Shown in pieces: positions 9,903 to 25,270 of a DNA stretch of 64,000 nucleotides. Each line of letters begins with the position of its first letter. Positions within the stretch are counted from its first letter, which is position 1. Source of the DNA: a virus; IMG/VR virus record IMGVR_UViG_3300045919_000305, positions 1 through 64,000 of that record; one strand, 5' to 3'. Below the pieces are notes generated by a model. That model saw nothing but the letters and a program-made list of their open reading frames with translations. It was not told where the DNA came from and ran no database searches. The position numbers were made by a program, and so were the translations under genes.

Positions 9903-9932
9903 AGTTCCTGTAGTTTGGTTCTGGAGAAAAAA

Positions 9933-10942: not shown

Positions 10943-10966
10943 CCGATCTCAAAAGATCGGTTTTTT
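10943..10966 (+). terminator. rho-independent terminator
   Basis: CCGATCT-CAAA-AGATCGG followed by TTTTTT. Confidence 0.7.
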
Positions 10967-11007
10967 AACGACCGCGATCCGTCGGCTTCGGATAGTTTAG
11001 AGGAAAT

Positions 11008-11565
11008 ATGAAAATGAAAAGAATATTATTATCATGCGTTTTGTTACTTGCAAGTATGTCTATATATGCTACACCGGAAACATTAACCTTAAACCCACCA
11101 CTAAACAATAAAATATTTGCAGCTTCTGGCTCAATTGTTGGAACCGGTTTAATAGATTCTTATATATTGGAGTGCCCTTTAGCAACATCAACAGGAATAC
11201 GAATTGTTCCTGCTGTGACACTGCTAGATTTAAATTCTGCATATGTGCCAACAAATTTGTCTGTTTCAGTTTCTGGCTCGCTTGGAAAATTCAGCACAAT
11301 CAGAACTACCGGGTATTCTACGCTAGCATCGGCAGCAGTAACTACTTCCGGAACTGCTATAGTGACTGTTAGCAAAACAGGTGCGGACGTTTTATACTCA
11401 TTAGTGTTTAAATGTAAAACAAACCCAACCGCCGCACAAATTGCAGCAGGAGCTATCGCCGGAACATTGACTGCATTAGAACTAATGCCAGCTAATAACG
11501 GAACCCCAATAGACAAAACAAAAGGCCATGTATTGACTCAATTTAAGCAAGATTCTGCGGAGTAA
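11008..11565 (+). CDS. exported protein (signal peptide), unknown function
   Basis: MKMKRILLSCVLLLASMSIYA/TPE signal peptide; GAGG upstream; beta-rich Thr/Ser/Ala mature part with two Cys. Confidence 0.7.
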   Translation: MKMKRILLSCVLLLASMSIYATPETLTLNPPLNNKIFAASGSIVGTGLIDSYILECPLATSTGIRIVPAVTLLDLNSAYVPTNLSVSVSGSLGKFSTIRTTGYSTLASAAVTTSGTAIVTVSKTGADVLYSLVFKCKTNPTAAQIAAGAIAGTLTALELMPANNGTPIDKTKGHVLTQFKQDSAE

Positions 11566-11570
11566 TAGTA

Positions 11571-13523
11571 ATGAAAAATTTATTATCGTTATTATTATTT
11601 TTATGGGGGTCTGCTTTATTAGCTGCACCTTGTCAAATAACTTTTACACCAAGGTCGCAGTATGGGTATACCCCGCAATATATGTCAGATCAGTTAACCG
11701 CCGCTGGATGGACTGTTCTAGGTGTTAGTGCCCCAATATTAAATGGCACTGTTGAGTACCGTAATGTAACCGCTACACGTTCAGACTTTACTTACACCTA
11801 TAGTGGCGTTACTTATAACATGTGCCAATTGCTTAATCGTTGGGATATAGCCCCGGCAAGCGAAAGACAGGCATTAGATGACGCAATAGGAACTTACCTA
11901 AACTTTACGATGCCGATAGGAGTTACAGTTGATAGAGTTAGTTATGATTTGGGATCTGATGGTGCTGAATCGCAAAATTATGTAGCTTATGCGGATTTTA
12001 TCAATAATGAAAGTAATGAGTGGGTCACTAATCCAGCAAAATTCGGATATACGCTTAAGGATTATCATAGTAATAATGGTCTTGCTGCATCAGCTACAGA
12101 AACATTGACTTACATTGATACGTCTGACGCGCATACCGTTGACTATCCATTTAGTATTTTCGGTCATTTGTTGATACCAACAGCCCTTGACCCAGCTACT
12201 CTTGATTTTTTCAGAAATTTTCTTCCAAGTGCAACTCATGCGAGTCAAATGATCGCATTAAGTTTACAGGTCGAAGGCTTAAAGATTTATAATAAAGCCG
12301 TAAGATATGACTACGGTAATACGCTTACTTCTATGGGTGAAAGTGTTGATGCCTCACGAGTAAAGCCTGCCGTTATGGTATTGGGGTTTTATCCTAAAGG
12401 TGATGCTGATACCCAAGCAGCAATTAACATTAAGGAAAATAAACTTAATGCTTCCCAGGTTGTCGTGGTTGAACCCGCAAGGAATCAGATACTTAAAACT
12501 TATGCAGGTGGAAGTAAGTGTGTTATAGGTAATGTTTATATACCGCCAAAAGATTTAATAGTGCATAAAACTCATGCTGCTTGTTTCACACAAGCTGAAT
12601 ACTTTGCGTCTAATGCTAATGCAATTCCTTACGTAGATTATTGGCCTATAACTCAAGCTTATATAGACGAGCTTAACAATGGTGATTATTTTGCCCATGC
12701 TGGAGGCGACAATCCAAAGTCTTTAACGGTGGGTTTTATATCTCCTTGGGATGGCACACTAGGAAACTATCCTGATCCAAGAGTTGACTTTGTATGTAAC
12801 TTTGGTTCTTTTTCTGCATCTTCATCAAGTCTTTGCGCTGGAGCAGTAGGTGCACTGGCAACGGTTATAGTTAAAGAGAATCCTAGCTGGACAGCCCAAT
12901 GTGTAATTGATGCGTTTATTGGAGGTACTAAGCAATTCAACAGGACATCTTCAAAAAGTGCTGGCGTTGGGTATGGAGTTTTTAACGCGGATGCTGTTAT
13001 TAACTACTCAGCTCAAAGGAAGAATGATTGCGGTACTAACGGTCTAATTGATGCAGACGGCGTTGAGCTTGGCGCTTTTGCCGAAGCTTACCCACAAAAC
13101 GCTACGAGCTTATACGGGATACCTAATCAGCAATTGTTTGGGGCTTACCCTTATAACTTCGCCAGCACATTAAGCAATAGCTACAACCAAGCTATATCTA
13201 ACGGTTGTACAGGACAGGGAAGCGTTGCTAAAGTTTGGAGACGTAGACTGGACCCCATAACCAATACTTATATTTATGAAGTTGGAACAGTTAGCGATGT
13301 AATTACTTGGCCAGGTAGTTATATTGAATGTGACGACTCGCCACAAGGAAGGCCAACAGCTAGGCATTTTAGTATCTTTTATAATAAATCCCAAATAACG
13401 GATGCTAACGGGTGTAACATTCGATATAAATCGCTATATGGGCAATGCAGTAATTCGGTTAACGTAAGAATGGGCGACCCTTCTTACCGTGCTACAAATT
13501 TTTATCACGGAAAATTGCTTTAA
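11571..13523 (+). CDS. exported 650-aa protein, unknown function
   Basis: MKNLLSLLLFLWGSALLA/AP signal peptide; starts 6 nt after the previous stop; many Cys; AT-rich codon usage. Confidence 0.7.
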   Translation: MKNLLSLLLFLWGSALLAAPCQITFTPRSQYGYTPQYMSDQLTAAGWTVLGVSAPILNGTVEYRNVTATRSDFTYTYSGVTYNMCQLLNRWDIAPASERQALDDAIGTYLNFTMPIGVTVDRVSYDLGSDGAESQNYVAYADFINNESNEWVTNPAKFGYTLKDYHSNNGLAASATETLTYIDTSDAHTVDYPFSIFGHLLIPTALDPATLDFFRNFLPSATHASQMIALSLQVEGLKIYNKAVRYDYGNTLTSMGESVDASRVKPAVMVLGFYPKGDADTQAAINIKENKLNASQVVVVEPARNQILKTYAGGSKCVIGNVYIPPKDLIVHKTHAACFTQAEYFASNANAIPYVDYWPITQAYIDELNNGDYFAHAGGDNPKSLTVGFISPWDGTLGNYPDPRVDFVCNFGSFSASSSSLCAGAVGALATVIVKENPSWTAQCVIDAFIGGTKQFNRTSSKSAGVGYGVFNADAVINYSAQRKNDCGTNGLIDADGVELGAFAEAYPQNATSLYGIPNQQLFGAYPYNFASTLSNSYNQAISNGCTGQGSVAKVWRRRLDPITNTYIYEVGTVSDVITWPGSYIECDDSPQGRPTARHFSIFYNKSQITDANGCNIRYKSLYGQCSNSVNVRMGDPSYRATNFYHGKLL

Positions 13524-13531
13524 TTAAACCC

Positions 13532-13562
13532 AGCGCCAAGGATGGCGCTATTTAACTTTTTT
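13532..13562 (+). terminator. rho-independent terminator
   Basis: AGCGCCA-AGGA-TGGCGCT then ATTTAACTTTTTT. Confidence 0.6.
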
Positions 13563-13593
13563 ATCCTCACTAACCCTAAAACTGGACACCGCT

Positions 13594-14124
13594 ATGAAAA
13601 GAGTAATTTTAACCGCTGTACCTTTATTGTTAAACGCTTGCGCCTATAATTCCACTATGGGAGTTAATGACCGTTTCCAGGTAGCTTCGACGGCCAGCTT
13701 CTTTGCGCCTTCTGTAACTACGGTAATCGATACACAAAACCCTAATGCCTTACCCCCCACCTTCGCCGGCCCGTCCATAGTCGGACAAGTTGCCAACGCA
13801 GCCGGTACAGTAGCCGCCGGCGCGTTTATTGGTAATGGTCTTAGCAAGAACCACGGCACCAGTGTTAATCAAAGCGGTGGCGGAGCCGTTGCGACAGCAA
13901 AGGGGGGCAGCTCTTCAGCCCTCGGAGTAGGCGGTCAGGGCGGCGCTGGCGGGAACGGAGGGAATGCGTTGAGTGAGGCTTACAGTAATAGCCATTCATC
14001 GGTGCGGTCGAATATGGAATCCGTTAACACCAATATTAACGCAAACGAAAACATCAATAGTAGTTCAAGTAGTTCTCCCCCTACCCAGAGCGGTAATGGT
14101 GAAGGCCACAGTTCTGACAATTAA
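13594..14124 (+). CDS. lipoprotein with Gly/Asn/Ser-rich low-complexity region
   Basis: MKRVILTAVPLLLNAC: signal peptide ending in a lipobox-like LNAC; mature part has GGGAVATAKGGSSSALGVGGQGGAGGNGGN and an Asn/Ser-rich tail. Confidence 0.65.
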   Translation: MKRVILTAVPLLLNACAYNSTMGVNDRFQVASTASFFAPSVTTVIDTQNPNALPPTFAGPSIVGQVANAAGTVAAGAFIGNGLSKNHGTSVNQSGGGAVATAKGGSSSALGVGGQGGAGGNGGNALSEAYSNSHSSVRSNMESVNTNINANENINSSSSSSPPTQSGNGEGHSSDN

Positions 14125-14146
14125 AACGTAATACCTATAAACCTAT

Positions 14147-14183
14147 CCTAGAGTGTAGCTTATCTAAAATGTTATACTCTAGG
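14147..14183 (+). promoter_or_regulatory. 8-bp inverted repeat between the lipoprotein gene and the 607-aa gene
   Basis: CCTAGAGT (14147-14154) / ACTCTAGG (14176-14183); overlaps a TATACT box; no U-tract. Confidence 0.3.
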
Positions 14184-14211
14184 GTCTTCAACTTTAAAAC
14201 CTGAGATACCT

Positions 14212-16035
14212 ATGCGAAAAATAAGCCTAACCCTTTTATGCCTGTCTTTAGCTGTATTATTACAGCCCGAAGCCAAGGCGACTGTTTACGGCCCGGTAGA
14301 GAACTTCGATGTTACCAATACCACAGGGCAAGATGCGCACGGCTTCGAAATCGAAGCGAGAGACGTACATAAATCCGATATTTCATCAATCTTTGGCGAT
14401 CCCAGCCGCTTTGGTTTGGATCAAGTAGAGCGTTACGATGCGCCTATCGTTACTGATTTTACTGATGCTACCGGATTCGGGGTGCGTATACGCTATGCTG
14501 CGGCATTTAACGGTGTTTGGTCTGCTACTACCCCAAGTGGGCAGTTACCCTATAGCCCGGCGGATTCCTGCTGGAAATACGGTGATCCTAACTACAACAC
14601 GACAACTTATCCCTGTGATCATTTTGGAGTAAGCTTTAACGTTGCTCCAACGACCGTAAAGTATTCATGGTTGGTTGAGCAGACGCCGGGTGCATTAACT
14701 CCGACTGGTGTTTACGTGCCAAGTCCAGTATTCAATATTGTGACCCCAGCACAGGTAATACCCCCCGCTGTTGTAGGCAATCCCCCCATCGTTATAGCAC
14801 CTCCGGTAATACAAGTTCAATTACCCGCACCGGAATTACCCCCAGCGGCACAGTTCGGAACCCCTTTCTGGGTTAAGGTAAAATCTACTTGCCTGAATAA
14901 TAACATCGGTGTAGAAGCCCTCGTGAAAGACGGTAAAGATATGGCCGTTATGGAGACTGAGACAGAATGGCAGATATTTCAAGAAGATGTGGGCAACCCA
15001 GCCTCAAAATTCCTGGATATGACGGCTACCAAGCTGCACAATTGCCCGGCTGGTGAAGCCTACACAATTGACGTATTCGAATACGCGGGCTTACTGACGG
15101 CTGAAGGTCAAATAGACCTACAAGGTGCTTCTGATACCCCCGTAATAGATCCACCCACGTTAGGTAAATGGCTGGGCGCAAACAATGTCGGTATTAACTA
15201 TGCAGGCGGTGTGCCTGATGTATTGGGCGGAGTAGTTGCACCGTTACCAACACCAGCTCCTACGCCTTCTCCGACACCGGCACCTGTGGCTCAAGCGTGT
15301 TCAGGCACTGACGAAGTAATCACTAGTACCGCCGGCGCAGCGAGAAACAGCAACATCGCTTTATTTGACGGAACCCTTATCGCGGCTCCTTATATTGGCA
15401 CGGCCAGTAACTTAGTCGCTATTCCAGCGGCGGGAGTAGCCTACGCTTTTAACGGGGTAGCCTTTGGTACGTTCAACGCCGGTGATTTGATCACTTACAG
15501 TGGGTCTTATGGCGCGGCATTGAATGCTAACGGAACGCCAATGTGGTGTATCCCTGCCGCCGTAACTGTGACAGCAGCTATCGCCCCAACGCCTGTGCCA
15601 ACGCCTGTGCCAACGCCTGTGCCAACGCCTGTGCCAACGCCTGTGCCAACACCTGTGCCAACACCTGTGCCAACACCTGTGCCAACACCTGTGCCAACAC
15701 CTGTGCCAACACCTGTGCCAACGCCTGTGCCAACACCTGTGCCAACACCTGTGCCAACACCTGTGCCAACGCCTGTGCCAACGCCTGTGCCAACACCAGT
15801 AGGTTGTGCGCTAGGAACAGGTAAAGTATCCTCACCGAATGCTAAAGCAACAGCAGTTGCAGGTAATGTGATTACCGTTGCCGGTAAGCAATACACAGTG
15901 GCTGATTGTGCGGTTATTAACTACAAAGGCCATGCGAAGTCAATCGCTGTAGGGTTTAGTGTTGAAGTGAAAGCCGGTTATGCTCTAAACGGCGTCACTT
16001 ATGCTACTAAGCTAACCGTTGATGACGGCAAGTAA
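14212..16035 (+). CDS. exported modular protein with PT-rich linkers
   Basis: [25 protein letters not shown] signal peptide. About 330-aa N-domain, [15 protein letters not shown] linker, about 100-aa two-Cys domain, (PTPV)18, about 78-aa two-Cys C-domain. Confidence 0.75.
15586..15801 (+). repeat. 18 tandem copies of a 12-bp unit CCAAC[G/A]CCTGTG (PTPV)
   Basis: Counted directly; copies differ only at the Thr wobble base (G5 A6 G1 A3 G2) plus a degenerate last copy CCAACACCAGTA. Confidence 0.95.
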
Positions 16036-16054
16036 AGCCATCGATTACAAAACT

Positions 16055-16081
16055 GAAAGGCGCTATTAGCGCCTTTCTTTT
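16055..16081. terminator. bidirectional rho-independent terminator between convergent units
   Basis: GAAAGGCGCT-ATT-AGCGCCTTTC followed by TTTT on + ; CAGTTTTG follows on the - strand. Confidence 0.75.
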
Positions 16082-16108
16082 CCTCTGGAGAATAGAAAGG
16101 GCAAACGA

Positions 16109-16252
16109 ATGTGGTATAAATTAACCCCTAAAGCGGGGTGTCTTATTTGTTTTGCCGCAATGGGCATCAGCGCATTCAATAGCCGTTGGGAGTCTCTAGT
16201 TATAGCCTCAAGCTTATTAATCGTCTACGCGATTATGGTTAAAATTACTTAA
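16109..16252 (+). CDS. small membrane protein (47 aa), tentative
   Basis: ATG 16109 after AAAGGG; MWYKLTPKAGCLICFAAMGISAF...LLIVYAIMV; lies downstream of the terminator. Confidence 0.25.
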   Translation: MWYKLTPKAGCLICFAAMGISAFNSRWESLVIASSLLIVYAIMVKIT

Positions 16253-16255
16253 AAC

Positions 16256-19200
16256 CTAATCCCCATTCTCGTCCCGCAATCGGTTCTGCTCATAGAGGTA
16301 CGTTAATCTAGGATTCACAGCGTACCCTCTAATCCCTTTTTCCTGCTTGTTTTTAGCCGTTCTAACCACCGATTTGTGGATGCTTTCATAAGTAACCGGC
16401 CAAGTTGGGTGTTTAGCCTGCCAACGCGCCAACTCTTCTTGAGGGACGGGTTCGCCGTTTGCGATCGCTTTTTGAACTTTGTTAACCAGTTTTTGCCGCG
16501 CATCGGAGATCGCAGCTTCCGCGGCTTTGTTATACCCGCGTTCAGCGTACAGCACTTCCATATTAGAGCTGCCCAATCCGATCGCTTGGAATAGCACTTC
16601 CATAGCGGAGGCGTCTTTCAGTTGCTCACCGTTCATGCTTTCGTAACCGTGTTGCGCTAAGCGGATAGCTTTCAGCCCGTCGCCCAAAGCTTTAGGCGTT
16701 GCACTCTCTACGCCGCGTAGTACTTCACCATCGGCCATCATTTTTGCACCGTCAGCGATCTTTTTAATCATACCGCCGAATGGTCCAGCCACTTGAGATA
16801 AGTATTCGGTAGCTGCGTCTTTGCCTTCCAGATCCTTCAAAGGCTCTTGGAAGAAGACATTGCTCAAGTTCATACGGGATGCCAAGTTAACAGGCGTTAA
16901 AGCGTTGCCCAGACCCTTGATCATCGCGGTAGCAAACGTTTCACCGCCCAACTCAGTTAACCCTACCCGTAATTCTTTTTCAATGTCCCACGGCTCATCA
17001 TCGTCGGATGCTGCATTGCCAATTACATTGATTACCATCGAGATTGCGCCCATCAACGGCATACCGAATAAACCAGCCGCCGCACCTTGCATGGCGAAGA
17101 GCGCCATTAACGATCTAGCCGCATTTTGTGCAGTTTCTTTGGCTTCCGCTTTGGCCGCTTTCTCTTCGTCCGTGGTTTCTGGCATTTTTTTCCAGCCTGA
17201 GAACGCATCTGCAGCGGTTTTCCCCCACAGATAAAGCATCGCCTGTGGGTACTTTTTATACTGCATGACCACACCGGCTACCGGTCCTCGGAAGATCCGA
17301 GCCGCGTTTTCAGTCGAGTAGTCCCCGTGTGCATCGTTGTTGACTTTACGAGCGTAATCCATAGCCGCTAAATGGTTGTTGATATCGCCTTGTAACGCTA
17401 AATCATAAGCCGCCATCAGGGTAATTTCACGGTTCATACGCTCGCCGTGGTGGAACATCCAGCCCATTTTTTTGTTAAATTCTTGCAATCGTCCGCCGTA
17501 ATCTTCCCCCTCACGGCCAATACCTAACACATCGAAGAAGTTGGTTCGAGAAACGTCCCCTTCTTCTTTGAAGTTTCGCAGGGCAGATAGCCTACTCCCT
17601 ATTCTATCCATTTCCGCCCGATCGCCGTTATGCGCTTGCAGGTAATCCAACCGCTGCCGCATGATAGTAGAGATCGACGAGTTGCCGTCTTCGTCACGGT
17701 AAAGGTACTCACCATTCGCGTCTTTTTTGTTAATTCCGATAACTGCCTTTAGGAATTCGTTACGTGTTTTGCCAAAAGCCTTAGCCGTTTCCTTAACGCC
17801 GTATTTTCCAGCAGTAATGGGCATGGCTACCACAGGGGTTTGGAATAAGTTCACTAAACCACTGGATAAACCAAAACCCATTGTCATAACGAAATCGAAC
17901 TGACGAATAGCCGAAGCGATTTGGTCCATACCCGTACTCGGCGTGTTTACCATCGCGTTGTAGGTTTTGGTTAATTCCTGCAAAACGTTGGCCGCTTTTT
18001 CCCGATCTTTAGGGGGGATTAATTTAGCCGCTTCGAGTGCTTGCGTGTTTTTGTCCTCAACTCGGTGCAGCGACTCCAGCACGTCCTCTGACGCACCGAA
18101 CTTGCGGCGTAGTTTGATAGCTTCTTCGTAGACTTGTTTCTCTTTCAGGTCGTCGGTTTCCGCCAATAGAGTTTCTAAGGCGTCCTCTTCGTTCAGTTCG
18201 TCCCAATTTGCTTGCAGCATGGCCGCAGCTTTAGTTTCGGCATCAACCTGATCGCGTAAAGAAGTTCTCGAAGCGATATCCAGCGCGCGTCTACCTTCGA
18301 CCAAGACTTGTGCCATTTCACGGCCCTCGGTCATGTTAGCAAGCTGAGAAGCGCCGTGGTGGATGGTATTGGCGAAAGCCCGCATCGCATCTTCATCGAA
18401 CCCTAATGTACCTTTACGGTGCATGGAGTTGTGACGCACGGATATGTCCGGCAAAGTAGCCAGATACATTTGGTGGATCTCGTCTTGCAGCGCTTTGGAA
18501 ATATCCGGAGCGATATCGGCACCCGCTATTTTAGAGTGGATATCCTTCAAGAAGTTATCAGATACCGCGTCACCTATTTGCGAGTTCTGGATATCACTCA
18601 GTGAAGTGCCTTGATCGTTTTCGTTGACCGTGCCGCCGTCTTTGATAAAAGCTTTTAACGCTCTGTCCCTAGCGGGAGTCGAACTGTAGGTTAGAAACCA
18701 CTTCTCGCCTTGCGCATCTTTGCCGTAAAACCAATGATCTCCATACCGTTTTAATGGCGCGTAATACCAGGACAACGATTGCGATTCGAACTTAGACCGA
18801 AGCTGAGCGATCAACGCCGCGCCGGTTTGAGCATCCAAGATAGACTCTTCGATTCGGTTTTCTAAAGCCTCTAGGCGCTGGTTGAATATCTCAGTGTGAA
18901 GCGCATAAGTACCCGCGTAAATGTCTTTAACCGAAGGGTGTTGGGCAAATAGCGTTTCGTAAGCCGGTCTTAAATGTGCGTAAGCCTGACGGCGTAAAAT
19001 GTTTGAATCTTTCCAGCCGTTGCTTGCGCGGATTTGTGTTTGCTTTTGATCAATCTCGCGTAATTTTGCCAAAAACTGCGCCGCCTTATCTTGCGAAGCA
19101 AACGTCGCTGAGTTCTTGTCAGAGAATAACGCGCCGGCGCTTTCTGCAGCCGCTTTGATGTAGCTTCGGCTCTGACCGTTAAATTCGGTCATTGAATAGG

Positions 19201-22200
19201 CTTTAAACCCGCTTGGGGTCGGCTCTACACCTAACCAATCTTTCGACACGTTGATATCTCGCAAGGTAGATTGCTGCATCAAGCGACCAGTTTCTTTGCG
19301 GGCAGGTACCGGCAAGGCTTTCCATTTGATCGAGGTCAACTGGTTTGCTTTGTGTAAATAAGGATCCACCATCGCGCGACGGCGTTGCATCGCTTCTTCG
19401 TAAGCTTTCAGCCCCGGCAGATATTTTTTAGCAATTTCTATAATCTGCCGAACAGACAGCACGGCCAATTTTTCTTTAGCCACAGTGTTTGAGAAGTCTT
19501 CAAAAGCGTTCAGCATTTCGACTGTAGTGGCTCGTGCTGCACCTTCTGGTAACTGCTCCACCGCTTCCCGGATACTGGTAGGGGCGCTAAACATCGGCAT
19601 CCCTTCTGAAAGTATTTTGGCTTTCATTTCGGGCGTGATGATCAGGGCAGGTTGGGACTTAAAACCTTTCTCTTCCAGTTCATATATTGATGAGCGCGCA
19701 TCAGCAGCGGCATCGTAATTCGGAAAATTACCAGATTTTCGGGTTTCCGTTTTCTTATCCGCTAAGTAGTAATCCCCAACCCCGTTAGATGTAGGCCCTT
19801 CCGCCAGAATGGTTATTTCTGGCCCCATACTTCCGGTAGATTTCACCCAACTGGATTTTATCTTCCCACCCATCTTCCGCGCAATCTCATTCGCCGCTTG
19901 GGTAATGAGTGCGGGTTTACCTTGAGCGTTTAAGCCGTTTTCATCGCCATACATAGCTTGCGTCCAATCACCGCCGACTTTTAGATCAAGGCCCGATAAC
20001 TCTTTGGCCACTGGTGAAACTTCACCCTCTGCTTCAAAACCTACCGATTCTTCAGTGCTCTGGCCCTCGTCGTTAAGTATCTTATCCGCTACCCCTTTGC
20101 CCAGGTACTCTTCGAGTTGTTCGGGTGTTTGATTAAATCGGGCGTCTCTATCGTTATCGTTTTTATCAAAGATAACGATATCAAATTTACCATCACGATT
20201 CACATACCGGATTCGATTAATGTGTTGGGATAAATCGTACCGATCCGCTTGTTGATCACCCGTTGTCCACGCTACCGAATCACTGCCGTTATCAATCGCT
20301 TGGCTGATGGCCTTTTTCATTAACAAAGAGATATAGGCGTTCGTTGCCTTGTTATTTGAATCCGTGACGAAGGGTGCGGGAGGAACACCGAACTCGGGCA
20401 ACCGTTCCAACCTTCGTATCTCATCTTGGATAACGACCCTTTCGGTTTGCAGCGTATCGAATTCCTCGTCCACATCATCGGGAAACCTGAGCGCCAATTC
20501 GCGTACACGCTTGTGTAATTCTTGATTTCTATTTTTCAACTCGACGAGCTTCAGCTCTTCGGTATTCGTTAAGGGGCGATTAAACCCCGATTTCCGTCCC
20601 GCTTGACTTCGTTGCGACTGCACTTCTTCAAGGAACAAGACTTTATTACCGTTCGCATCAATTCGGGTATTGTGTCGAATCCAGCCAATTTGCTTTCCTT
20701 GCCCAACATCACCAAAATGCGTTGTATCGTGTTGGTTATGGGGTTCTGTAGTCGGAATTGTAACGACGAGTTCTCGGTAATCTGTGCCGCCGGGTAGGGT
20801 AAGTTGCGCGGAATTGTGCTTGGCTTCTGTAAATTCCGCATTTGTAGATACGTTGTGAAATTCATCGATAGCATCGAGCCATTTTTTCGCTTGCCCTTGA
20901 AACTTTTCTGGGAGGTCATACGACTCTAAATCCCCGTCCTCCAAAGCGTAATACAGGTCATCATCAAAATATTCTTTACCGTGTATCTGTAACGGTAGAT
21001 TTTCTTTTCTAATTCCGTCAAAAAGTTCTTTCGCATACCCATCGGCTTCCGCTTTGAGCGCTTGCTTCCGCTCTTCTGGAGAAATCCCACCCAACATCAC
21101 ATCCTCAACCTTCACGCCATTAGCGTCCAGAAATTCACTAACTTGTGCCCGTGTAACTTTACCAGAAAGCGAATCTAACCAATCGGTAATCCCCGACCAG
21201 TAAATTTCATCTTTCTTTACGTCAAATCTAGGCGCGTTGGCTACCAGCCAGACTTTAACTTGTTGCGCATTGCCGAATACCTTTTCCGGTGCCTTTTCAA
21301 TCGCTTTGCTTAAAGCAGAATAGAAGCGCGGTGCGGGTTCTGAAGTTTGCGCACTAAACATCGGTGCTGCTTCAATATCCGCAGCACTAAAAGGGCTAGA
21401 TTGGATTCCACGACCTGTTCGCCCCTCGGTTTCTTCCGCAGTCCGTTGACCTTCCCAAAGCGGCACCCCACCCCAACGTTTAGTATTGAGTGCAGGCACA
21501 ATTGAAACTACAGAATAAACTTGGCCGCCGTTTAAAGCGTCTTTCTGCTTGCTGACAATTAAAGCTTGTTGTAGCCTTGAAGATCGGAACACATAGTGCC
21601 CTCGGTCTTGGAATATTTGATCAAAGCCTTTAGCAATTGAGGAAACGTGACGTGCGTAATTTTCCGCAACTTCGCCGGTGTAGCCCGGAACCATCCGGCG
21701 GTCGCCTTCCCGTACCGCGTTATCGTGAATGTGCGTAATGCCAAAACCTTTATGCTCGGCAGTCGCTTTACCGACGCGTAATTTAATCGGTAAACGCTCA
21801 ACGCCTTTAGCTACGGCACTAGCCGGAGTCATGGCGATAGCACCGTTCATATTGCCTTCGTAAGCTGGTGTTTCAGGAACGATGAAATCTTCAACCGATT
21901 TACGGATACCGTGCAGACGACGGGACTCCATGACTTCACTATTAAATTCGCGTGGGGCGTTTAAATCCGTTTTTATTGCGGATTGCAGACTCGCTTTTAG
22001 CAAATCGTGTAAATCGTTTTCCGTCATGGTACCCGCGATAAAGCTGCGGCCTAATCCATGAGCGACCAAGAATGATTTGATTTGGGATAATAGGCGTTTA
22101 AACCAACCCGCTTGCGGTGCGTATTCACCTAATTTAGCGATAACTTCCGCGATAAACGGCTCGCTACCTTCGCCCATGTGCGCATAAGGTTTGTTGCCAT

Positions 22201-25200
22201 TGGCGTCAGTGCCATTCAGCACTTTATTCCATGTCAGATTAGCCAGCGATCCGGGGATCTTGGCTTGATTAGTGATTTGGTTTTGCAGCGCTTGGTAGGC
22301 TTTCGTGCCCAGCATCCGACGAAGGTTGAAATGCTCCCCGATCTCGTGCAGAACTACAGCATTCAATCGTTTTTTGGGGATCGCGTTAATATCAAGAAAC
22401 GCCTTCCCCTTTAAATAAACTGCTTCTGCAGCCGAATATTTTTCCGGATTGACTGGCCAGCCTTCTTTGCCTTGGGTGAAATTCAGCACGCCGCTTTCTA
22501 CTAAACGGGCTAACCCTGGGCCGTACGCTTCGCCTAAATGCGCGATCGCTTCTTCAGGTGAGTTAAAACGGTCGTTTAGTTGTTGCTGAACGTCCGGTTC
22601 TTTAAGTAACGCTTCCGCTATTTTGGATTGCGTTGTCTCAACAGGCCCTGCGTTAGTAGTTGTTGCTCCAGCTCCGCCTCTTTTTCGTCGTGGTGCCTTT
22701 TCAGCTCTAGGAGGCGCTTGCGGTGCTGCCCCATTATCCTCGCTGGTTGGTCGGCTAACTCCGACATCCCCAGCCGTTCCAGTCTCGTTTCGTCTGACAT
22801 ACTCTTCGCCTCGTTTACCAGCGTCAAGTTCCCGGCTGGATCGTTCAAAAATAGTGGATAGCTCTGTTCCGGGTATTATAGGGCTTTGGCCTAGGTAAAG
22901 GCCAACTCCATTTGGCTTTTCAGCTCCAGGCTTAGATTTCGGGTGCGCTATTTGGTCTAAACCCGTTTGTTTAGTGTATTCCGCGACGCGTTGCTTAGCA
23001 TTCTGCATCGCTTGGTTTATAGACGCATCTGACCCACCAGTGATCACCGCACTCAGCTCATCGCCGCCATGCCGTATTAATACCGCGTTGCTACCGGCTT
23101 TCTGCATTTCGTCGGCAAAAATGTCACTAATGTCGCGGAATACCGGATTCGCTATCGCGTGGTTGTTGTTAAAATGCGAGTTCAAACCACCTAAATTAGC
23201 AATATCCGCATCGACAAAGTGAGCCGTTTCGCCGGTATCCGCAACGTGTTTCATCACCGCTTCAATGGTGGGTTCCTTATCGTGCGGTAAATGGAAACCC
23301 GTAACAGCGTCCATGTCTTCTTTAGGAACGATTTTTTCTAGTGCCGCTTCATCCGTAAGCCCCGCATCACGGGCAAGCTGCCGGCGTTCCGCTACCCGCT
23401 TTTCGCTAGGTGACATGAAATCCGTCTGCCTGCGATCTTGAGGGGAGCGTTCGGTTATTTCTTGCCCTTCTTGCGATGGTTGTTCTTGCGGGGTTGCGTT
23501 CTGGCTTTGGTCATTTAGTTGCTCTGGTTGTAGTGAGGATGTTTCGGATGGTGCTTGTTCAATATTCCCGTTCCCTTGTCCGCTTGGTTCCACTCCGCTG
23601 CTGTCGATTGTGGGATTTCCACCCGCTTTGCGAATTCCGGGTTGTGCGCTGCCGCCGCCATCAGACGGGCTTGGGCTGGACTCTTGGAGGGCGTTTTGGT
23701 TCTCCGTTAATTGCGCTCGGCGTTCACGCTCGGCGGTAATTAGTTGTTTCTGTTCGCTAGTTGCGGCCCGCTGACGGAATAAATTAGTTAGCGCAGCATC
23801 GTCCAAAGTCTGTATGGTAGTTTGGAAAGCTTCAGATTGCGGTTGGGTAATTCCGGCATCTAGGGCGGCGTTGGCTGCCCTGTTCAAAACACCATCGGGT
23901 GCAGCGGCTAACTGCTCTTTAATGGGGGCAGCGGCAGCCTCTGACGCCGCTTGTATTTGCTCTTCAGGCGTCGGTGGTGTTCTGGAAGCGATGTGCATTT
24001 CCATTGCGTCCAACACGGTTTGGGCCGAATCCCCAGGTTTAGTCGGGATTTCCAATTTCGCGGCAGCATCGGCTAATCGTTTAGTAACGACTTGACCTAA
24101 TCCAACAGAACTATACGCTTTCTTATAGTTATCTATAAAGTTTTGACTTTCATCAAGAACGGCTTGCTCGTGCTCGTCCGGAGGCTGAAAACCCTGTTCT
24201 TCTTGGGCGCCCGGTAATACTTCCGCCGCCGGTGTTTCTGATTCTTGCGGCATATAATCCGCCAACATCGTATCGATATCCGCAGGTTCTGCAGGCAAGT
24301 TACGTTGCTGCTCAATGATCGCTTGTTCTTCAGGGGTTGTTTCAGGCGTTACGGGTTGCGCATGGGTTAAAGCGCCTGTCGGTGCGCCCATACCAAAACC
24401 AGCTACCGCGCCAAGGGCTGCGGCATTGCCTACCCCTTCCATCGCATCTTTACCCAAAGCGACGTTAGAAGCCGCCTGTTCTTGGCCGGATTGCGCAGTT
24501 TCTTGTGCTGCTTCGACTCCGCCCCCTTCCAAAGCTCGGCGTGCGGCGTTCTTAGTAGTCGGTGCAATGGCGTTTTGGCCGCCGATTAGCGCGGTGTTTA
24601 CGTCCCCGACGCCTAATTTATTGGCTATTTTTCCGAAACCGCCCGTAATTGCGCCCGTTGCGGCACCGCTTCCCGCTAAAATTGCGGTCTGCTCCGGGGT
24701 TAATAAACCGTTTTCCGTTTGTTGCCGCACTTGTTCGACGTTTTGCCCTGCCGTTACGCCACCTTCGCCAATTGCGCCAGCGGCTAGGGGACTCAATGCG
24801 GGCGCCGCTTTCATCACGCCTTTAGCAATGCCCGCACCGCCTAACATACTCGGTGCGGATTCTAAAATCGTGTGGCCAGCAACGGAGGGGTTTTCTGCGA
24901 CGGCTTTTAGTGTAGGGACAAAACCCTCAGCATTTTGAACGTTTTCAAAAGCTTGTTTCTGTGCGGGGGAATAATTTTCGGAAAGAATATCTTTAGCGCG
25001 TTTAAAATCGACCCCATTTTCTTGCAACGCTTTACCAACACGTCCGCCGGTAGGGATATCCGCTAAACCGACTGCGGTTTCTGGAACTCCAATAGCGCCT
25101 TTGAGTGCGGTAATCCCAACGTCTTTGGCACGATCCCCGAAGGATGTTTCAGGGGCAGGTTGCTCGGGTTTCGGTAAGTAATCCGCCAAAATCGTATCAA

Positions 25201-25270
25201 CATCAGGGGCTTGATCTTTTGGCATATAATCAGCCAACATAGAATCGATATCTGGTGCGGTATCCGCCAT
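16256..25270 (-). CDS. 3004-aa polyvalent-type virion/ejection protein
   Basis: Single uninterrupted 9-kb ORF ending the late operon. Gly/Ala-rich hydrophobic N-region, GGDEF-like module (aa about 652-800), PLKRYG (PLxRFG-type) motif at nt 18740-18757, hydrophobic segments near the C-terminus. Confidence 0.7.
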   Translation of the reverse strand: MADTAPDIDSMLADYMPKDQAPDVDTILADYLPKPEQPAPETSFGDRAKDVGITALKGAIGVPETAVGLADIPTGGRVGKALQENGVDFKRAKDILSENYSPAQKQAFENVQNAEGFVPTLKAVAENPSVAGHTILESAPSMLGGAGIAKGVMKAAPALSPLAAGAIGEGGVTAGQNVEQVRQQTENGLLTPEQTAILAGSGAATGAITGGFGKIANKLGVGDVNTALIGGQNAIAPTTKNAARRALEGGGVEAAQETAQSGQEQAASNVALGKDAMEGVGNAAALGAVAGFGMGAPTGALTHAQPVTPETTPEEQAIIEQQRNLPAEPADIDTMLADYMPQESETPAAEVLPGAQEEQGFQPPDEHEQAVLDESQNFIDNYKKAYSSVGLGQVVTKRLADAAAKLEIPTKPGDSAQTVLDAMEMHIASRTPPTPEEQIQAASEAAAAPIKEQLAAAPDGVLNRAANAALDAGITQPQSEAFQTTIQTLDDAALTNLFRQRAATSEQKQLITAERERRAQLTENQNALQESSPSPSDGGGSAQPGIRKAGGNPTIDSSGVEPSGQGNGNIEQAPSETSSLQPEQLNDQSQNATPQEQPSQEGQEITERSPQDRRQTDFMSPSEKRVAERRQLARDAGLTDEAALEKIVPKEDMDAVTGFHLPHDKEPTIEAVMKHVADTGETAHFVDADIANLGGLNSHFNNNHAIANPVFRDISDIFADEMQKAGSNAVLIRHGGDELSAVITGGSDASINQAMQNAKQRVAEYTKQTGLDQIAHPKSKPGAEKPNGVGLYLGQSPIIPGTELSTIFERSSRELDAGKRGEEYVRRNETGTAGDVGVSRPTSEDNGAAPQAPPRAEKAPRRKRGGAGATTTNAGPVETTQSKIAEALLKEPDVQQQLNDRFNSPEEAIAHLGEAYGPGLARLVESGVLNFTQGKEGWPVNPEKYSAAEAVYLKGKAFLDINAIPKKRLNAVVLHEIGEHFNLRRMLGTKAYQALQNQITNQAKIPGSLANLTWNKVLNGTDANGNKPYAHMGEGSEPFIAEVIAKLGEYAPQAGWFKRLLSQIKSFLVAHGLGRSFIAGTMTENDLHDLLKASLQSAIKTDLNAPREFNSEVMESRRLHGIRKSVEDFIVPETPAYEGNMNGAIAMTPASAVAKGVERLPIKLRVGKATAEHKGFGITHIHDNAVREGDRRMVPGYTGEVAENYARHVSSIAKGFDQIFQDRGHYVFRSSRLQQALIVSKQKDALNGGQVYSVVSIVPALNTKRWGGVPLWEGQRTAEETEGRTGRGIQSSPFSAADIEAAPMFSAQTSEPAPRFYSALSKAIEKAPEKVFGNAQQVKVWLVANAPRFDVKKDEIYWSGITDWLDSLSGKVTRAQVSEFLDANGVKVEDVMLGGISPEERKQALKAEADGYAKELFDGIRKENLPLQIHGKEYFDDDLYYALEDGDLESYDLPEKFQGQAKKWLDAIDEFHNVSTNAEFTEAKHNSAQLTLPGGTDYRELVVTIPTTEPHNQHDTTHFGDVGQGKQIGWIRHNTRIDANGNKVLFLEEVQSQRSQAGRKSGFNRPLTNTEELKLVELKNRNQELHKRVRELALRFPDDVDEEFDTLQTERVVIQDEIRRLERLPEFGVPPAPFVTDSNNKATNAYISLLMKKAISQAIDNGSDSVAWTTGDQQADRYDLSQHINRIRYVNRDGKFDIVIFDKNDNDRDARFNQTPEQLEEYLGKGVADKILNDEGQSTEESVGFEAEGEVSPVAKELSGLDLKVGGDWTQAMYGDENGLNAQGKPALITQAANEIARKMGGKIKSSWVKSTGSMGPEITILAEGPTSNGVGDYYLADKKTETRKSGNFPNYDAAADARSSIYELEEKGFKSQPALIITPEMKAKILSEGMPMFSAPTSIREAVEQLPEGAARATTVEMLNAFEDFSNTVAKEKLAVLSVRQIIEIAKKYLPGLKAYEEAMQRRRAMVDPYLHKANQLTSIKWKALPVPARKETGRLMQQSTLRDINVSKDWLGVEPTPSGFKAYSMTEFNGQSRSYIKAAAESAGALFSDKNSATFASQDKAAQFLAKLREIDQKQTQIRASNGWKDSNILRRQAYAHLRPAYETLFAQHPSVKDIYAGTYALHTEIFNQRLEALENRIEESILDAQTGAALIAQLRSKFESQSLSWYYAPLKRYGDHWFYGKDAQGEKWFLTYSSTPARDRALKAFIKDGGTVNENDQGTSLSDIQNSQIGDAVSDNFLKDIHSKIAGADIAPDISKALQDEIHQMYLATLPDISVRHNSMHRKGTLGFDEDAMRAFANTIHHGASQLANMTEGREMAQVLVEGRRALDIASRTSLRDQVDAETKAAAMLQANWDELNEEDALETLLAETDDLKEKQVYEEAIKLRRKFGASEDVLESLHRVEDKNTQALEAAKLIPPKDREKAANVLQELTKTYNAMVNTPSTGMDQIASAIRQFDFVMTMGFGLSSGLVNLFQTPVVAMPITAGKYGVKETAKAFGKTRNEFLKAVIGINKKDANGEYLYRDEDGNSSISTIMRQRLDYLQAHNGDRAEMDRIGSRLSALRNFKEEGDVSRTNFFDVLGIGREGEDYGGRLQEFNKKMGWMFHHGERMNREITLMAAYDLALQGDINNHLAAMDYARKVNNDAHGDYSTENAARIFRGPVAGVVMQYKKYPQAMLYLWGKTAADAFSGWKKMPETTDEEKAAKAEAKETAQNAARSLMALFAMQGAAAGLFGMPLMGAISMVINVIGNAASDDDEPWDIEKELRVGLTELGGETFATAMIKGLGNALTPVNLASRMNLSNVFFQEPLKDLEGKDAATEYLSQVAGPFGGMIKKIADGAKMMADGEVLRGVESATPKALGDGLKAIRLAQHGYESMNGEQLKDASAMEVLFQAIGLGSSNMEVLYAERGYNKAAEAAISDARQKLVNKVQKAIANGEPVPQEELARWQAKHPTWPVTYESIHKSVVRTAKNKQEKGIRGYAVNPRLTYLYEQNRLRDENGD

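What the first reader, a model, noticed from the sequence alone, without database searches (positions are those of the whole stretch)
22871..23317. GGDEF-like (nucleotide cyclase / palm) module buried inside the 3004-aa virion-type protein
Residues about 652-800 of the giant ORF read DAVTGFHLPHDK ... AHFVDADIANLGGLNSHFNNNHAIANPVFRDISDIFADEM ... AVLIRHGGDELSAVITGG ... NGVGLYLGQSPI.
- This follows the order of conserved elements of GGDEF diguanylate-cyclase domains: a DxLTGLxNR-like entry, a metal-binding DxD strand, a helix, the RxGGDEF strand and a closing hydrophobic strand.
- The signature here is GGDEL with both acidic residues kept (nt 23054-23068).
- I do not recall a cyclase-type module among the domains catalogued for phage polyvalent or ejection proteins.
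- If the protein enters the cell with the DNA, it could synthesise a cyclic (di)nucleotide, or act as a palm-domain nucleotidyltransferase, in the first seconds of infection. That would allow signalling takeover, decoy or defence interference.
Basis: partly seen in the sequence, partly recalled or inferred. Interest (0 to 1): 0.8.

Follow-up and report, generated by a model that had tools for sequence, protein, structure and literature searches.

The report
GGDEF cyclase module in phage giant protein
A 3004-residue phage protein that is probably carried in the virion does contain an intact-looking GGDEF-type nucleotide cyclase module, but such modules were already catalogued in these "polyvalent" proteins in 2017, so this is a new, divergent example, not a new kind of thing.

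Summary
Residues about 645-825 of the 3004-aa ORF (window 16256-25270, minus strand) form a GGDEF-fold palm domain.

- **Sequence evidence:** the window sequence alone falls just below Pfam's threshold (21 bits against 23.8). A profile of its family matches only diguanylate cyclases among solved structures (43 of 43, best E 2.6e-8).
- **Structure evidence:** the AlphaFold model (pLDDT 95.4) hits only GGDEF domains in the Foldseek top 50 (E about 5e-11, TM about 0.7).
- **Active site:** the metal-binding Asp (D689), N697, R733-x-GGDE and K819 are all present. They are nearly invariant in 102 single-copy relatives.
- **Differences from canonical enzymes:**
  - an NLGGLN loop replaces the FK loop;
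  - Asn replaces the guanine-specifying Asp;
  - an inserted HPK motif is present;
  - there is no RxxD inhibitory site and no sensor domain.
- **Carrier protein:** it is a phage polyvalent protein (LPD39, PLxRFG tail) at the end of the late operon.

Iyer et al. 2017 list GGDEF there and propose the same functions.

The best reading is an unregulated, injected (cyclic) dinucleotide synthase, with the product unproven. Interest is moderate.

The parts
16256..25270 (-). 3004-aa giant ORF, a phage polyvalent protein that carries the module
   Evidence: ORF list and translation. An identical protein lies on a 95.6-kb JGI metagenome contig. A colinear 3099-aa ortholog is found in IMG/VR locus L011.
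22796..23338 (-). GGDEF-fold nucleotide cyclase module, aa 645-825 (single copy)
   Evidence: Family HMM 211.9 bits, one domain at 646-823. Profile against PDB returns only diguanylate cyclases. AF2 pLDDT 95.4. Foldseek top 50 are all GGDEF.
23297..23311 (-). Entry motif D654-A-V-T-G658, the counterpart of DxLTG at the start of GGDEF domains
   Evidence: D654 is conserved in 184/198, T657 in 177/198 and G658 in 165/198 family segments.
23204..23206 (-). Asp689, the predicted Mg-binding Asp of strand beta1 (aligned to the first Asp of DosC 'DVD', equivalent to PleD D327)
   Evidence: Alignment to DosC and DgcB. Asp in 100/102 single-copy relatives.
23180..23197 (-). N692-L-G-G-L-N697 loop. It replaces the canonical xFKxxN phosphate loop. 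N697 equals PleD N335 (base/sugar-edge contact).
   Evidence: N692 193/198, L693 188/198, G695 190/198, N697 191/198. Alignment register.
23147..23149 (-). Asn708, at the position of the guanine-specifying Asp (PleD D344)
   Evidence: Family has N in 139 and D in 52 of 198 segments. Register. Hypr GGDEF enzymes have Ser at this position (PMC6456294).
23057..23074 (-). R733-H-G-G-D-E738, the RxGGDE signature hairpin (followed by L739)
   Evidence: Translation. R 187/198, GG 180-192/198, D 165/198, E 167/198. In single-copy proteins D and E are each present in 100/102.
22937..22945 (-). H776-P-K778, a clade-specific conserved motif in an insertion between helix alpha3 and the last strand
   Evidence: H 166/198, K 179/198. 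Canonical DgcB has a 9-residue gap here. The motif is also present in standalone members.
22814..22816 (-). Lys819 in the last helix, counterpart of the phosphate-binding Lys (PleD K442).
   Evidence: K 158/198 overall and 93/102 in single-copy proteins. Aligned to the 'ASK' Lys of DgcB.
23339..23650 (-). Upstream linker, aa 541-644. It is rich in Q/S/E/P/G and poorly conserved. Its last ~25 residues are helical and conserved in close relatives.
   Evidence: Composition. 60% identity to the L011 ortholog against 77% for the module.
22586..22795 (-). Downstream linker, aa 826-895. It is rich in A/T/G/R/P and poorly conserved.
   Evidence: Composition. 43% identity to the L011 ortholog, dN 0.40 against 0.16 for the module.
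23690..24940 (-). N-terminal region, aa 111-527, resembling the N-terminal part of N4-like virion RNA polymerase proteins
   Evidence: phrog_2206 'virion RNA polymerase', E 1.9e-8, profile positions 205-661 of 3406.
21821..22585 (-). Module aa 896-1150 with a conserved LHEIGEH motif (aa 975-980); function unknown, possibly zincin-like
   Evidence: Conserved in the L011 and L012 giants. No PDB hit. One member gives a weak Zincin_1 hit at 0.0058.
18839..19516 (-). LPD39 (large polyvalent-protein-associated domain 39), aa 1919-2144
   Evidence: Pfam PF18858, 27.7 bits against cut-off 27, E 2.5e-6. Also present in the L012 giant at 5.3e-11.
16307..18073 (-). C-terminal PLxRFG ('tail-700') domain, aa 2400-2988, shared with DarB-like giant phage proteins
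   Evidence: NCBIfam NF032893, E 1.4e-126. phrog_30335 2.9e-97 and phrog_10089 'DarB-like antirestriction' 2e-63.

Best explanation
Residues about 645-825 are a divergent GGDEF-type nucleotidyl cyclase whose active site looks intact. It is one effector module of a phage polyvalent protein. I commit to the following mechanism.

1. The giant protein is made late and packaged, then enters the cell with the DNA (inferred).
2. The module sits between two poorly conserved, low-complexity linkers. It pairs with a second copy from another molecule (inferred).
3. Each half-site holds one purine NTP. Binding uses the glycine-rich NLGGLN loop, Lys819, Asn697 and Asn708, with Mg2+ on Asp689 and Asp737.
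4. Glu738 of the partner activates the 3'-OH.
5. Two NTPs are condensed with release of PPi into a dinucleotide. The product is most likely 3',3'-c-di-GMP or a mixed purine cyclic dinucleotide.
6. The module has no RxxD inhibitory site and no sensor domain, so the enzyme would be constitutively on and free of feedback.
7. It would flood the newly infected cell with a second messenger. This would reprogramme host behaviour or jam nucleotide-based defence.

What is shown: the fold, the homology and the conservation of the active site. What is inferred: catalysis, the product, dimerisation, packaging and the biological effect.
For: **Homology and fold**
- The family profile hits only GGDEF-domain proteins in the PDB (43 of 43).
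- The AF2 model has pLDDT 95.4 and shows the alpha-beta-alpha-alpha-beta-beta-alpha-beta-alpha order.
- The Foldseek top 50 are all GGDEF domains.

**Active site under selection**
- In 102 single-copy relatives, D689 is present in 100, each of the two Gly in 101-102, each of D737 and E738 in 100, N692 and N697 in 102, R733 in 98 and K819 in 93.
- The module is 77% identical to its L011 ortholog, against 43-60% for the flanking linkers. dN is 0.16 against 0.26-0.40.

**Nucleotide chemistry that releases PPi**
- A polyvalent-type inorganic pyrophosphatase (PF18823) lies directly next to the module in P0004, P0006, P0047, P0051, P0026 and the L012 giant.
- NUDIX domains occur in P0011 and P0012.

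**A two-domain catalytic unit**
- 48 of 150 relatives carry tandem copies.
- This fits the cross-dimer mechanism of GGDEF enzymes (PMC6456294).

**No feedback control**
- Gly726 and Ala729 occupy the positions of the RxxD Arg and Asp.

**Virion and injection context**
- The gene ends the late operon that holds terminase, portal, major head protein and head closure protein.
- The protein has a PLxRFG/DarB-like C-terminus, LPD39 and an N-terminus like that of N4 virion RNAP.
- Relatives carry ART-PolyVal, PBECR5, LPD23, LPD37 and LPD38.

**Ordinary cellular counterparts**
- Standalone members with the same signature sit downstream of ECF sigma genes in bacterial chromosomes. NCBI and JGI name them diguanylate cyclases.

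**Prior prediction**
- Iyer et al. 2017 made the same prediction for GGDEF in polyvalent proteins.
Against: - The window sequence is below the curated thresholds: PF00990 21.1 against 23.8 bits, and TIGR00254 14.4 against 37.4 bits.
- Several canonical residues differ. Gly694 stands where PleD K332 is. Asn708 replaces the guanine-specifying Asp. The second phosphate-binding Arg (PleD R446) is not conserved. Neither activity nor a c-di-GMP product can therefore be assumed.
- The window protein has only one copy and no recognisable dimerisation domain.
- 33 of 48 tandem relatives keep only one catalytically equipped copy. A symmetric c-di-GMP synthase should not tolerate this, which hints at a different product or a single transfer.
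- No virion proteomics or enzymology exists. No cultured phage or plasmid in the searched collections carries a close relative.
Confidence: 0.6

Rival explanations
1. The fold and delivery are the same, but the product is not c-di-GMP. The clade would make another nucleotide: cGAMP, c-di-AMP, a linear pppNpN, or a short oligonucleotide. That product would act as a decoy, competitor or replacement for host immune second messengers (CBASS, type III CRISPR, Panoptes-like guards).
For: - Asn stands at the Watson-Crick-face position where canonical enzymes have Asp and Hypr cGAMP synthases have Ser.
- The signature is always GGDE and never GGEE.
- 33 of 48 tandem relatives have one active and one degenerate copy. 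The degenerate copy keeps the nucleotide-contact residues (N692, N697, R733, H776, K778) but loses the metal and acid residues. This layout resembles Cas10 or heterodimeric cyclases and allows only one bond per encounter.
- Palm enzymes of this superfamily do make non-c-di-GMP immune nucleotides (mCpol 2',3'-c-di-AMP; PMC12657218).
Against: - All sequence and structure matches are to diguanylate cyclases. No Cas10 or mCpol entry is among the 43 PDB profile hits (E up to 1) or in the Foldseek top 50.
- N697, which equals the guanine-contacting PleD N335, is invariant. Asn at the corresponding site favours guanine in mCpol.
- Chromosomal standalone members look like ordinary signalling genes.
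Confidence: 0.22
2. The module is not an enzyme in this protein. It would be a nucleotide-binding or purely structural palm domain, for example a sensor of GTP or c-di-GMP, or a scaffold inside the capsid.
For: - Many GGDEF domains in bacteria are degenerate receptors.
- The window sequence scores below the curated thresholds.
- The equivalents of K332 and R446 are missing.
- Degenerate copies exist in relatives.
Against: - The window copy keeps every acidic and metal-binding residue.
- These residues are nearly invariant in single-copy proteins (100/102), which is hard to explain without catalysis.
- The usual c-di-GMP receptor site (RxxD) is absent.
- The adjacent pyrophosphatase points to a PPi-releasing reaction.
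Confidence: 0.1
3. The module is an active cyclase, but it is not injected. It would work late in the producing cell before packaging, or the giant protein is not a virion component at all.
For: Packaging is inferred only from gene position and from homology of other parts of the protein. No MPTase-PolyVal or MuF domain was detected.
Against: - The PLxRFG/DarB-like C-terminus and the N4-vRNAP-like N-terminus are typical of packaged, injected giant proteins.
- The gene lies in the late structural block on the same strand.
Confidence: 0.08

Closest known systems
GGDEF domains of phage and conjugative-element polyvalent proteins (Iyer, Burroughs, Anand, de Souza, Aravind 2017, J Bacteriol; PMC5512222)
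   Same: - A GGDEF module embedded in a giant multi-domain protein encoded with late phage genes.
- The same predicted role: an injected enzyme that makes a (cyclic) nucleotide to interfere with host signalling.
- Relatives of this module share polyvalent-protein domains named in that study: InPase, ART-PolyVal, PBECR5, LPD23/37/38/39 and a helicase-methylase dyad.
   Different: - That paper calls the domain 'not very widespread' and gives one example, Acetonema longum WP_004096050.1. I could not check whether that example belongs to this clade.
- Here the clade has 439 clusters at 50% identity.
- It has a distinct signature (NLGGLN, Asn for Asp344, an HPK insertion, no I-site).
- It shows frequent tandem active-plus-degenerate copies and recurrent adjacency to InPase.
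Canonical diguanylate cyclases (PleD, WspR, DgcB, DosC; Pfam PF00990)
   Same: The fold, the order of secondary-structure elements, the metal-binding Asp, the Asn that contacts the base, RxGG[DE]E and the phosphate-binding Lys in the last helix.
   Different: - Only 13-20% identity.
- No sensor or dimerisation domain, and no RxxD I-site.
- Gly in place of K332, Asn in place of D344, and R446 not conserved.
- A 9-residue insertion with HPK.
Hypr GGDEF enzymes (GacA/GacB, 3',3'-cGAMP synthases; PMC6456294)
   Same: The Watson-Crick-face residue is not Asp, and the signature is strictly GGDE(F) rather than GGEEF. The Geobacter Hypr GGDEF structure 6d9m is among the best structural matches (TMq 0.74).
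   Different: The residue is Asn, not Ser/Thr. There is no Rec domain. Specificity for Asn at this position is unknown.
Cas10 palm / minimal CRISPR polymerase (mCpol, Panoptes OptS; PMC12657218)
   Same: The same RRM-palm superfamily. Tandem active-plus-degenerate palm pairs in relatives recall Cas10. The setting is a phage-host conflict over nucleotide signals.
   Different: No Cas10 or mCpol entry among the 43 PDB profile hits (E up to 1) or the 50 best Foldseek matches. The full GGDE signature is kept, whereas mCpol has nearly lost it. Here the enzyme is on the phage side, not the host side.
Free-standing phage GGDEF proteins (Bacillus phage G gp350, phage SP-15 diguanylate cyclase, Bordetella phage CN1)
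   Same: Phage-encoded GGDEF fold (BFVD Foldseek E 4e-10 to 2e-4).
   Different: Those are small separate gene products with 10-18% identity. They are not modules of a virion giant protein. tblastn of this module finds nothing in 50,697 phage records.

Membership tests
GGDEF domain (Pfam PF00990 / TIGR00254) | The window sequence alone scores above the curated family threshold | tested here: not met
   PF00990 scores 20.5-21.1 bits against 23.8. TIGR00254 scores 14.4 against 37.4. These are the only domain-level hits to the stretch.
GGDEF domain (Pfam PF00990 / TIGR00254) | The family-level profile links to GGDEF and to nothing else | tested here: met
   Profile A1 gives 43 PDB hits, all GGDEF-domain proteins, best 2.6e-8, with full-length alignments to PleD and DgcB. 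22 of 31 members hit PF00990, best 5.6e-15. Most standalone members carry a precomputed PF00990 assignment.
GGDEF domain (Pfam PF00990 / TIGR00254) | RRM-like palm fold with the signature beta-hairpin | tested here: met
   AF2 pLDDT 95.4, with elements H-E-H-H-E-E-H-E-H. The Foldseek top 50 are all GGDEF, TMq 0.65-0.74.
GGDEF domain (Pfam PF00990 / TIGR00254) | Metal-binding Asp in beta1 and a GG[DE][DE] hairpin preceded by Arg | tested here: met
   D689 and R733-H-G-G-D-E738 are present. They are aligned to the DosC and DgcB equivalents and are nearly invariant in single-copy relatives.
Diguanylate cyclase (GTP-specific c-di-GMP synthase) | Guanine-specifying pair, Asn (PleD N335) and Asp (PleD D344) | tested here: not met
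   N697 is present, but position 708 is Asn. The family has N 139 / D 52 of 198.
Diguanylate cyclase (GTP-specific c-di-GMP synthase) | Phosphate and transition-state basic residues (PleD K332, K442, R446) | tested here: inconclusive
   K819, equivalent to K442, is present. Gly694 stands at the K332 position. No conserved Arg is found at the R446 position. The clade-specific H776 and K778 might substitute, but this could not be checked without model coordinates.
Diguanylate cyclase (GTP-specific c-di-GMP synthase) | Dimerisation that brings two GTP-loaded domains together | not testable with these tools
   There is a single copy in the window protein. Tandem copies in 48 of 150 relatives suggest a two-domain unit. 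No multimer prediction was available.
Diguanylate cyclase (GTP-specific c-di-GMP synthase) | Synthesis of c-di-GMP from GTP | not testable with these tools
   This needs enzymology.
Feedback-regulated DGCs (I-site) | RxxD motif five residues upstream of GGDEF | tested here: not met
   Window positions 726-729 read GSNA. Family position 726 is Gly in 165 of 198.
Phage-type polyvalent proteins (Iyer et al. 2017) | Several unrelated domains in one giant polypeptide, including polyvalent-specific LPD domains | tested here: met
   The protein combines GGDEF, LPD39 (PF18858, 27.7 against 27 bits) and PLxRFG. Modules are shuffled among relatives that carry ART-PolyVal, PBECR5, InPase and LPD23/37/38.
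Phage-type polyvalent proteins (Iyer et al. 2017) | Gene embedded among late or virion genes of a phage | tested here: met
   The same strand carries, upstream of this gene, the terminase, portal, major head protein, head closure protein and a virion structural protein. The same synteny is seen in L011.
Phage-type polyvalent proteins (Iyer et al. 2017) | Zincin-like MPTase for self-processing (the most common, but not obligatory, domain) | tested here: inconclusive
   No MPTase-PolyVal hit was found. A conserved LHEIGEH module exists, with one weak Zincin_1 hit at 0.0058 in an ortholog.
Phage-type polyvalent proteins (Iyer et al. 2017) | Packaged in the virion and delivered with the DNA | not testable with these tools
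   This is inferred from homology to DarB-like and N4-vRNAP-like regions and from gene position.
Hypr GGDEF | Ser/Thr at the D344 position | tested here: not met
   The residue is Asn708.
Cas10 palm / mCpol | Closest sequence or structure relatives are CRISPR polymerases | tested here: not met
   None appears among the 43 PDB profile hits or the 50 best Foldseek hits.

The most novel reading that the evidence does not exclude
This may be a distinct clade of GGDEF-like enzymes that is enriched in mobile elements. Its marks are the NLGGLN loop, Asn at the specificity position, the HPK insertion, no I-site, frequent active-plus-degenerate tandems and fusion to a pyrophosphatase. Its product may not be c-di-GMP. 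Phages and conjugative elements would inject it to counterfeit or out-compete host immune nucleotides in the first moments of invasion. One example would be supplying the decoy nucleotide that guard systems such as Panoptes monitor.
Probability: 0.2. Interest if true: 0.75.

Novelty: new member of a known kind. Interest (0 to 1): 0.4.

Why it matters
If the module is active and injected, a phage would deliver a ready-made second-messenger synthase with its DNA. It would change host signalling before any phage gene is expressed. That idea was published as a prediction in 2017 and, in the library searched here, has no experimental test.

This window offers a clean case to test:
- a single, compact, well-modelled domain of 181 aa;
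- an intact active site;
- no regulatory parts.

The clade features found here make the product question specific and answerable by LC-MS. These features are the Asn at the specificity position, the active-plus-degenerate tandems and the adjacent pyrophosphatase.

Tried and rejected
**Searches that found nothing or little**
- Megablast of the region and tblastn of the module found nothing in 50,697 phage records or 72,556 plasmids.
- The word-indexed protein search with the single sequence found only one homolog. The exhaustive search was needed.
- The search for related loci with the diverse alignment A1 failed for lack of a conserved stretch. With the closer set A2, the genome collection gave one weak locus and IMG/VR gave three.
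- phmmer of the whole giant protein against the PDB found nothing.
- The LHEIGEH module gave no PDB hit and only one weak Zincin_1 hit.

**Analyses that did not resolve the question**
- Single-sequence AlphaFold was useless (pLDDT 47).
- dN/dS against the L011 ortholog could not be computed for the module because dS is saturated. Only dN and identity are reported.
- The contexts of standalone relatives (L008, L009, L014, L016, L018) showed no conserved effector partner. The only pattern was an upstream ECF sigma gene in two cases.

**Readings considered and rejected**
- A chance motif match: ruled out by the profile, the model and Foldseek.
- A Thg1-like 3'-5' polymerase: the only support is a phmmer hit at E 0.32, and none appears in the profile search.
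- A Cas10/mCpol or polymerase palm: no matches.
- A second, degenerate copy in the window protein: none was found with filters off.
Full report
**1. The observation**

The window has a 3004-aa ORF on the minus strand at 16256-25270. Nucleotides 23054-23068 translate to GGDEL.

Pfam finds GGDEF (PF00990) as the only domain-level hit in this stretch. The score is E 4.3e-4 and 20.5 bits on a 210-aa fragment, and 21.1 bits on the 181-aa domain. Both are just below the curated 23.8 bits. NCBIfam TIGR00254 is also sub-threshold. A single-sequence search of the PDB gives only a weak DosC hit (0.038) and an insignificant Thg1-like hit (0.32). On its own sequence the case is therefore suggestive but not proven.

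**2. The family**

The word-indexed search found one homolog. The exhaustive HMMER scan of 1.84 billion cluster representatives found many more: 439 proteins at E<=1e-3, 298 at <=1e-10 and 55 at <=1e-30. Most are very large proteins. The median length is about 1500 aa for single-copy members, and the longest is 7849 aa.

I aligned 198 domain segments from the best 150 proteins. The conserved positions are:
- D654-x-V-T-G;
- D689;
- N692-L-G-G-L-N697;
- A707-N/D708;
- R733-x-G-G-D-E738;
- H776-P-K778;
- G788-x-G790 and G794;
- A811-D812;
- K819.

The window sequence has all of these except A811-D812, where it reads Ser-Ser.

**3. Homology to GGDEF**

- A profile of 31 diverse members (alignment A1) matches 43 distinct PDB sequences at E<=1. 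Every one is a GGDEF-domain protein. They include DosC at 2.6e-8, and DgcB, PleD, WspR, SiaD and DgcZ. The alignments to PleD 288-445 and to DgcB are end to end.
- 22 of the 31 members hit PF00990 individually, best 5.6e-15.
- With A1 as its alignment, AlphaFold2 gives pLDDT 95.4 and pTM 0.89. The model shows the GGDEF order of elements: helix 662-679, strand 683-691, helices 693-699 and 704-725, hairpin strands 728-735 and 738-744, helix 748-769, strand 790-797 and helix 804-820.
- Its 50 best Foldseek matches in the PDB are all GGDEF domains (E 5e-11 to 1e-8, TMq 0.65-0.74, probability 1.0).
- In the viral library the significant matches are annotated phage GGDEF proteins. Reverse transcriptases appear only at E>=0.01.

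The domain runs from about aa 645 to 825 (nt 22796-23338).

**4. Active-site anatomy**

I mapped residues using the HMMER alignments to DosC and DgcB.

| Window residue | Canonical counterpart | Role |
|---|---|---|
| D689 | first Asp of 'DxD' (PleD D327) | metal ligand |
| N697 | PleD N335 | base contact |
| N708 | PleD D344 | guanine specificity |
| R733-H-GGDE | RxGGEE | signature hairpin |
| K819 | PleD K442 | phosphate binding |

The differences from canonical enzymes are these:
- Gly694 lies where PleD K332 is, inside a glycine-rich NLGGLN loop.
- Position 708 is Asn, not Asp (family: N in 139 and D in 52 of 198).
- No conserved Arg matches PleD R446.
- A 9-residue insertion carries the conserved HPK motif.
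- The I-site is absent. Positions 726-729 read GSNA, and family position 726 is Gly in 165 of 198.

In 102 single-copy relatives the core residues are close to invariant: D689 in 100, each Gly in 101-102, each of D737 and E738 in 100, N692 and N697 in 102, and K819 in 93. Against the colinear ortholog in IMG/VR locus L011, the module is 77% identical (dN 0.16). The two flanking linkers are 60% and 43% identical (dN 0.26 and 0.40). dS is saturated, so no ratio can be given. This pattern is what one expects of an enzyme, not of a degenerate receptor domain.

**5. Clues from relatives**

- *Tandem copies.* 48 of the 150 best proteins carry two copies, or in a few cases three, about 75 residues apart. 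In 33 of these, one copy is catalytically equipped and the other is not. In 14 both copies are equipped. Degenerate copies keep N692, N697, R733, H776 and K778, but lose D689, D737, E738 and K819. In GGDEF enzymes the first acidic residue holds Mg2+, and the second acts across the dimer as general base for the 3'-OH of the partner's nucleotide (PMC6456294). The tandem layout therefore supports a two-domain catalytic unit. With a degenerate partner, it suggests only one bond per encounter.
- *Pyrophosphatase neighbours.* A polyvalent-type inorganic pyrophosphatase (PF18823) lies immediately next to the module in P0004, P0006, P0047, P0051 and P0026. It also does in the 4169-aa giant of locus L012, where InPase spans 630-761 and the module 816-990. 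NUDIX domains occur in P0011 and P0012. These neighbours fit a PPi-releasing nucleotide reaction.
- *Standalone members.* Proteins of 180-330 aa with the same signature exist in bacterial genomes. NCBI and JGI name them diguanylate cyclase or GGDEF proteins. Two of them sit just downstream of an ECF sigma factor, so they look like ordinary sensor-less signalling enzymes under transcriptional control.
- *A conjugative-element setting.* Another standalone member, P0001, lies with ArdC-N/MPTase-PolyVal, HipA, zeta toxin and AbiEii genes.

**6. The carrier protein and its phage**

The window comes from a 95.6-kb metagenome contig. The minus strand carries the terminase, portal, major head protein, head closure protein and virion structural proteins. 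The giant gene is the last gene of that block.

The C-terminal 600 residues are a PLxRFG 'tail-700' domain (NF032893, 1.4e-126). This domain is shared with DarB-like and other giant phage proteins (phrog_10089 at 2e-63, phrog_30335 at 2.9e-97). LPD39 lies at 1919-2144. Residues 111-527 resemble the N-terminal part of N4-like virion RNA polymerase proteins (phrog_2206, 1.9e-8).

The L011 ortholog is colinear with the same gene neighbours. The L012 giant shares five modules, including this one, and adds InPase, PBECR5, ART-PolyVal and LPD23. P0029 combines the module with a helicase-methylase dyad, LPD37 and LPD38. This is the modular, shuffled architecture of phage-type polyvalent proteins as defined by Iyer et al. 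2017. Packaging and injection are inferred from these homologies. They are not shown.

**7. What is already known**

Iyer et al. 2017 (PMC5512222) list GGDEF among the nucleotide-related domains of polyvalent proteins. They cite a prophage protein of Acetonema longum. They propose that the invading element uses the cyclic nucleotide to interfere with host responses or to act against rival elements.

A full-text search for 'polyvalent protein' plus GGDEF returned four papers, none with experiments on such a module. I could not check whether the Acetonema example belongs to the clade described here.

What this analysis adds:
- The clade is much larger than 'not very widespread' suggests.
- It has a recognisable signature.
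- It shows the tandem active-plus-degenerate pattern.
- It shows the pyrophosphatase adjacency.

**8. Most likely mechanism and rivals**

My best explanation (confidence about 0.6) is an unregulated GGDEF-type synthase that is delivered with the DNA, pairs with a second copy, and condenses two purine NTPs into a (cyclic) dinucleotide.

- I put c-di-GMP as the single most likely product. All relatives with known function make it, N697 is invariant, and chromosomal members look like ordinary cyclases.
- I give about 0.2 to a different product. The reasons are Asn708, the strict GGDE signature and the one-sided tandems. The recent finding that another minimal palm enzyme makes 2',3'-c-di-AMP decoys in phage defence (PMC12657218) shows that the superfamily can do this.
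- A non-catalytic role (about 0.1) is disfavoured by the near-invariance of the acidic residues.
- An active enzyme that is not injected (about 0.08) cannot be excluded without proteomics.

**9. Verdict**

The feature is real and the fold assignment is secure. The kind of thing is already described in the literature, so this is a new, divergent member of a known kind. Interest is moderate (0.4). It is a clean and testable case of a long-standing but untested prediction, with a specific open question about the product.

Noticed in passing
window 6991-7809 (+): The phage encodes a DHH/DHHA1 phosphoesterase (phrog_4771 at 7.7e-79; Pfam DHHA1 at 4.9e-8 and DHH at 3.2e-5) among its early and replication genes. 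Enzymes of this family degrade c-di-AMP and linear dinucleotides such as pGpG. It could be a partner or counterweight of the cyclase module, or simply a RecJ-like nuclease.
   Followed up: partly
window 25220-25252, 25172-25204 and 24248-24280 (-); aa 7-17, 23-33 and 331-341 of the giant ORF: Three copies of an 11-residue motif, D[IV]D[ST][MI]LADY[ML]P, lie in the N-terminal part of the giant protein. It may be a docking or packaging signal.
   Followed up: no
window 21821-22585 (-), motif at 22331-22348: The module at aa 896-1150 carries an LHEIGEH motif that is conserved in the L011 and L012 giants. It has no PDB or Pfam match, apart from one weak Zincin_1 hit (0.0058) in an ortholog. It could be a divergent processing peptidase.
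   Followed up: partly
relatives P0007, P0008, P0011-P0014, P0016, P0017 and others: 48 of the 150 best relatives carry tandem copies of the module. In 33 of them one copy is catalytically equipped. The other has lost the metal and acid residues but keeps N692, N697, R733, H776 and K778. The layout resembles Cas10 or heterodimeric cyclases.
   Followed up: yes
L012 9446-9841 (InPase, aa 630-761 of the 4169-aa ORF at 7559-20068); also P0004, P0006, P0047, P0051, P0026: A polyvalent-type inorganic pyrophosphatase (PF18823) sits directly next to the GGDEF-like module in six relatives, on either side of it. This suggests functional coupling through PPi removal.
   Followed up: yes
L018 7642-9717 and L009 8979-10744: Standalone 238-247-aa members of the clade lie immediately next to an ECF sigma factor gene, with an NrsF anti-sigma gene in L018. 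They appear to be sensor-less cyclases controlled at the level of transcription.
   Followed up: partly
L001 1687-10984: The standalone homolog P0001 (44% identical) lies in a conflict-gene cluster with ArdC-N/MPTase-PolyVal, an HTH-HipA pair, a zeta toxin and AbiEii. This is typical of a conjugative element.
   Followed up: no
window 40629-41585 (-): An HNH endonuclease gene (phrog_3377 at 6.9e-62) sits inside the structural gene block. It may be a homing endonuclease.
   Followed up: no
window 3505-5870 (+): A DNA methyltransferase (phrog_67 at 6.7e-81) and a helicase (phrog_62 at 1.1e-137) are encoded as adjacent separate genes. They match PHROG profiles built from much longer fused proteins. 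This recalls the methylase-helicase dyad of DarB-type polyvalent proteins.
   Followed up: no
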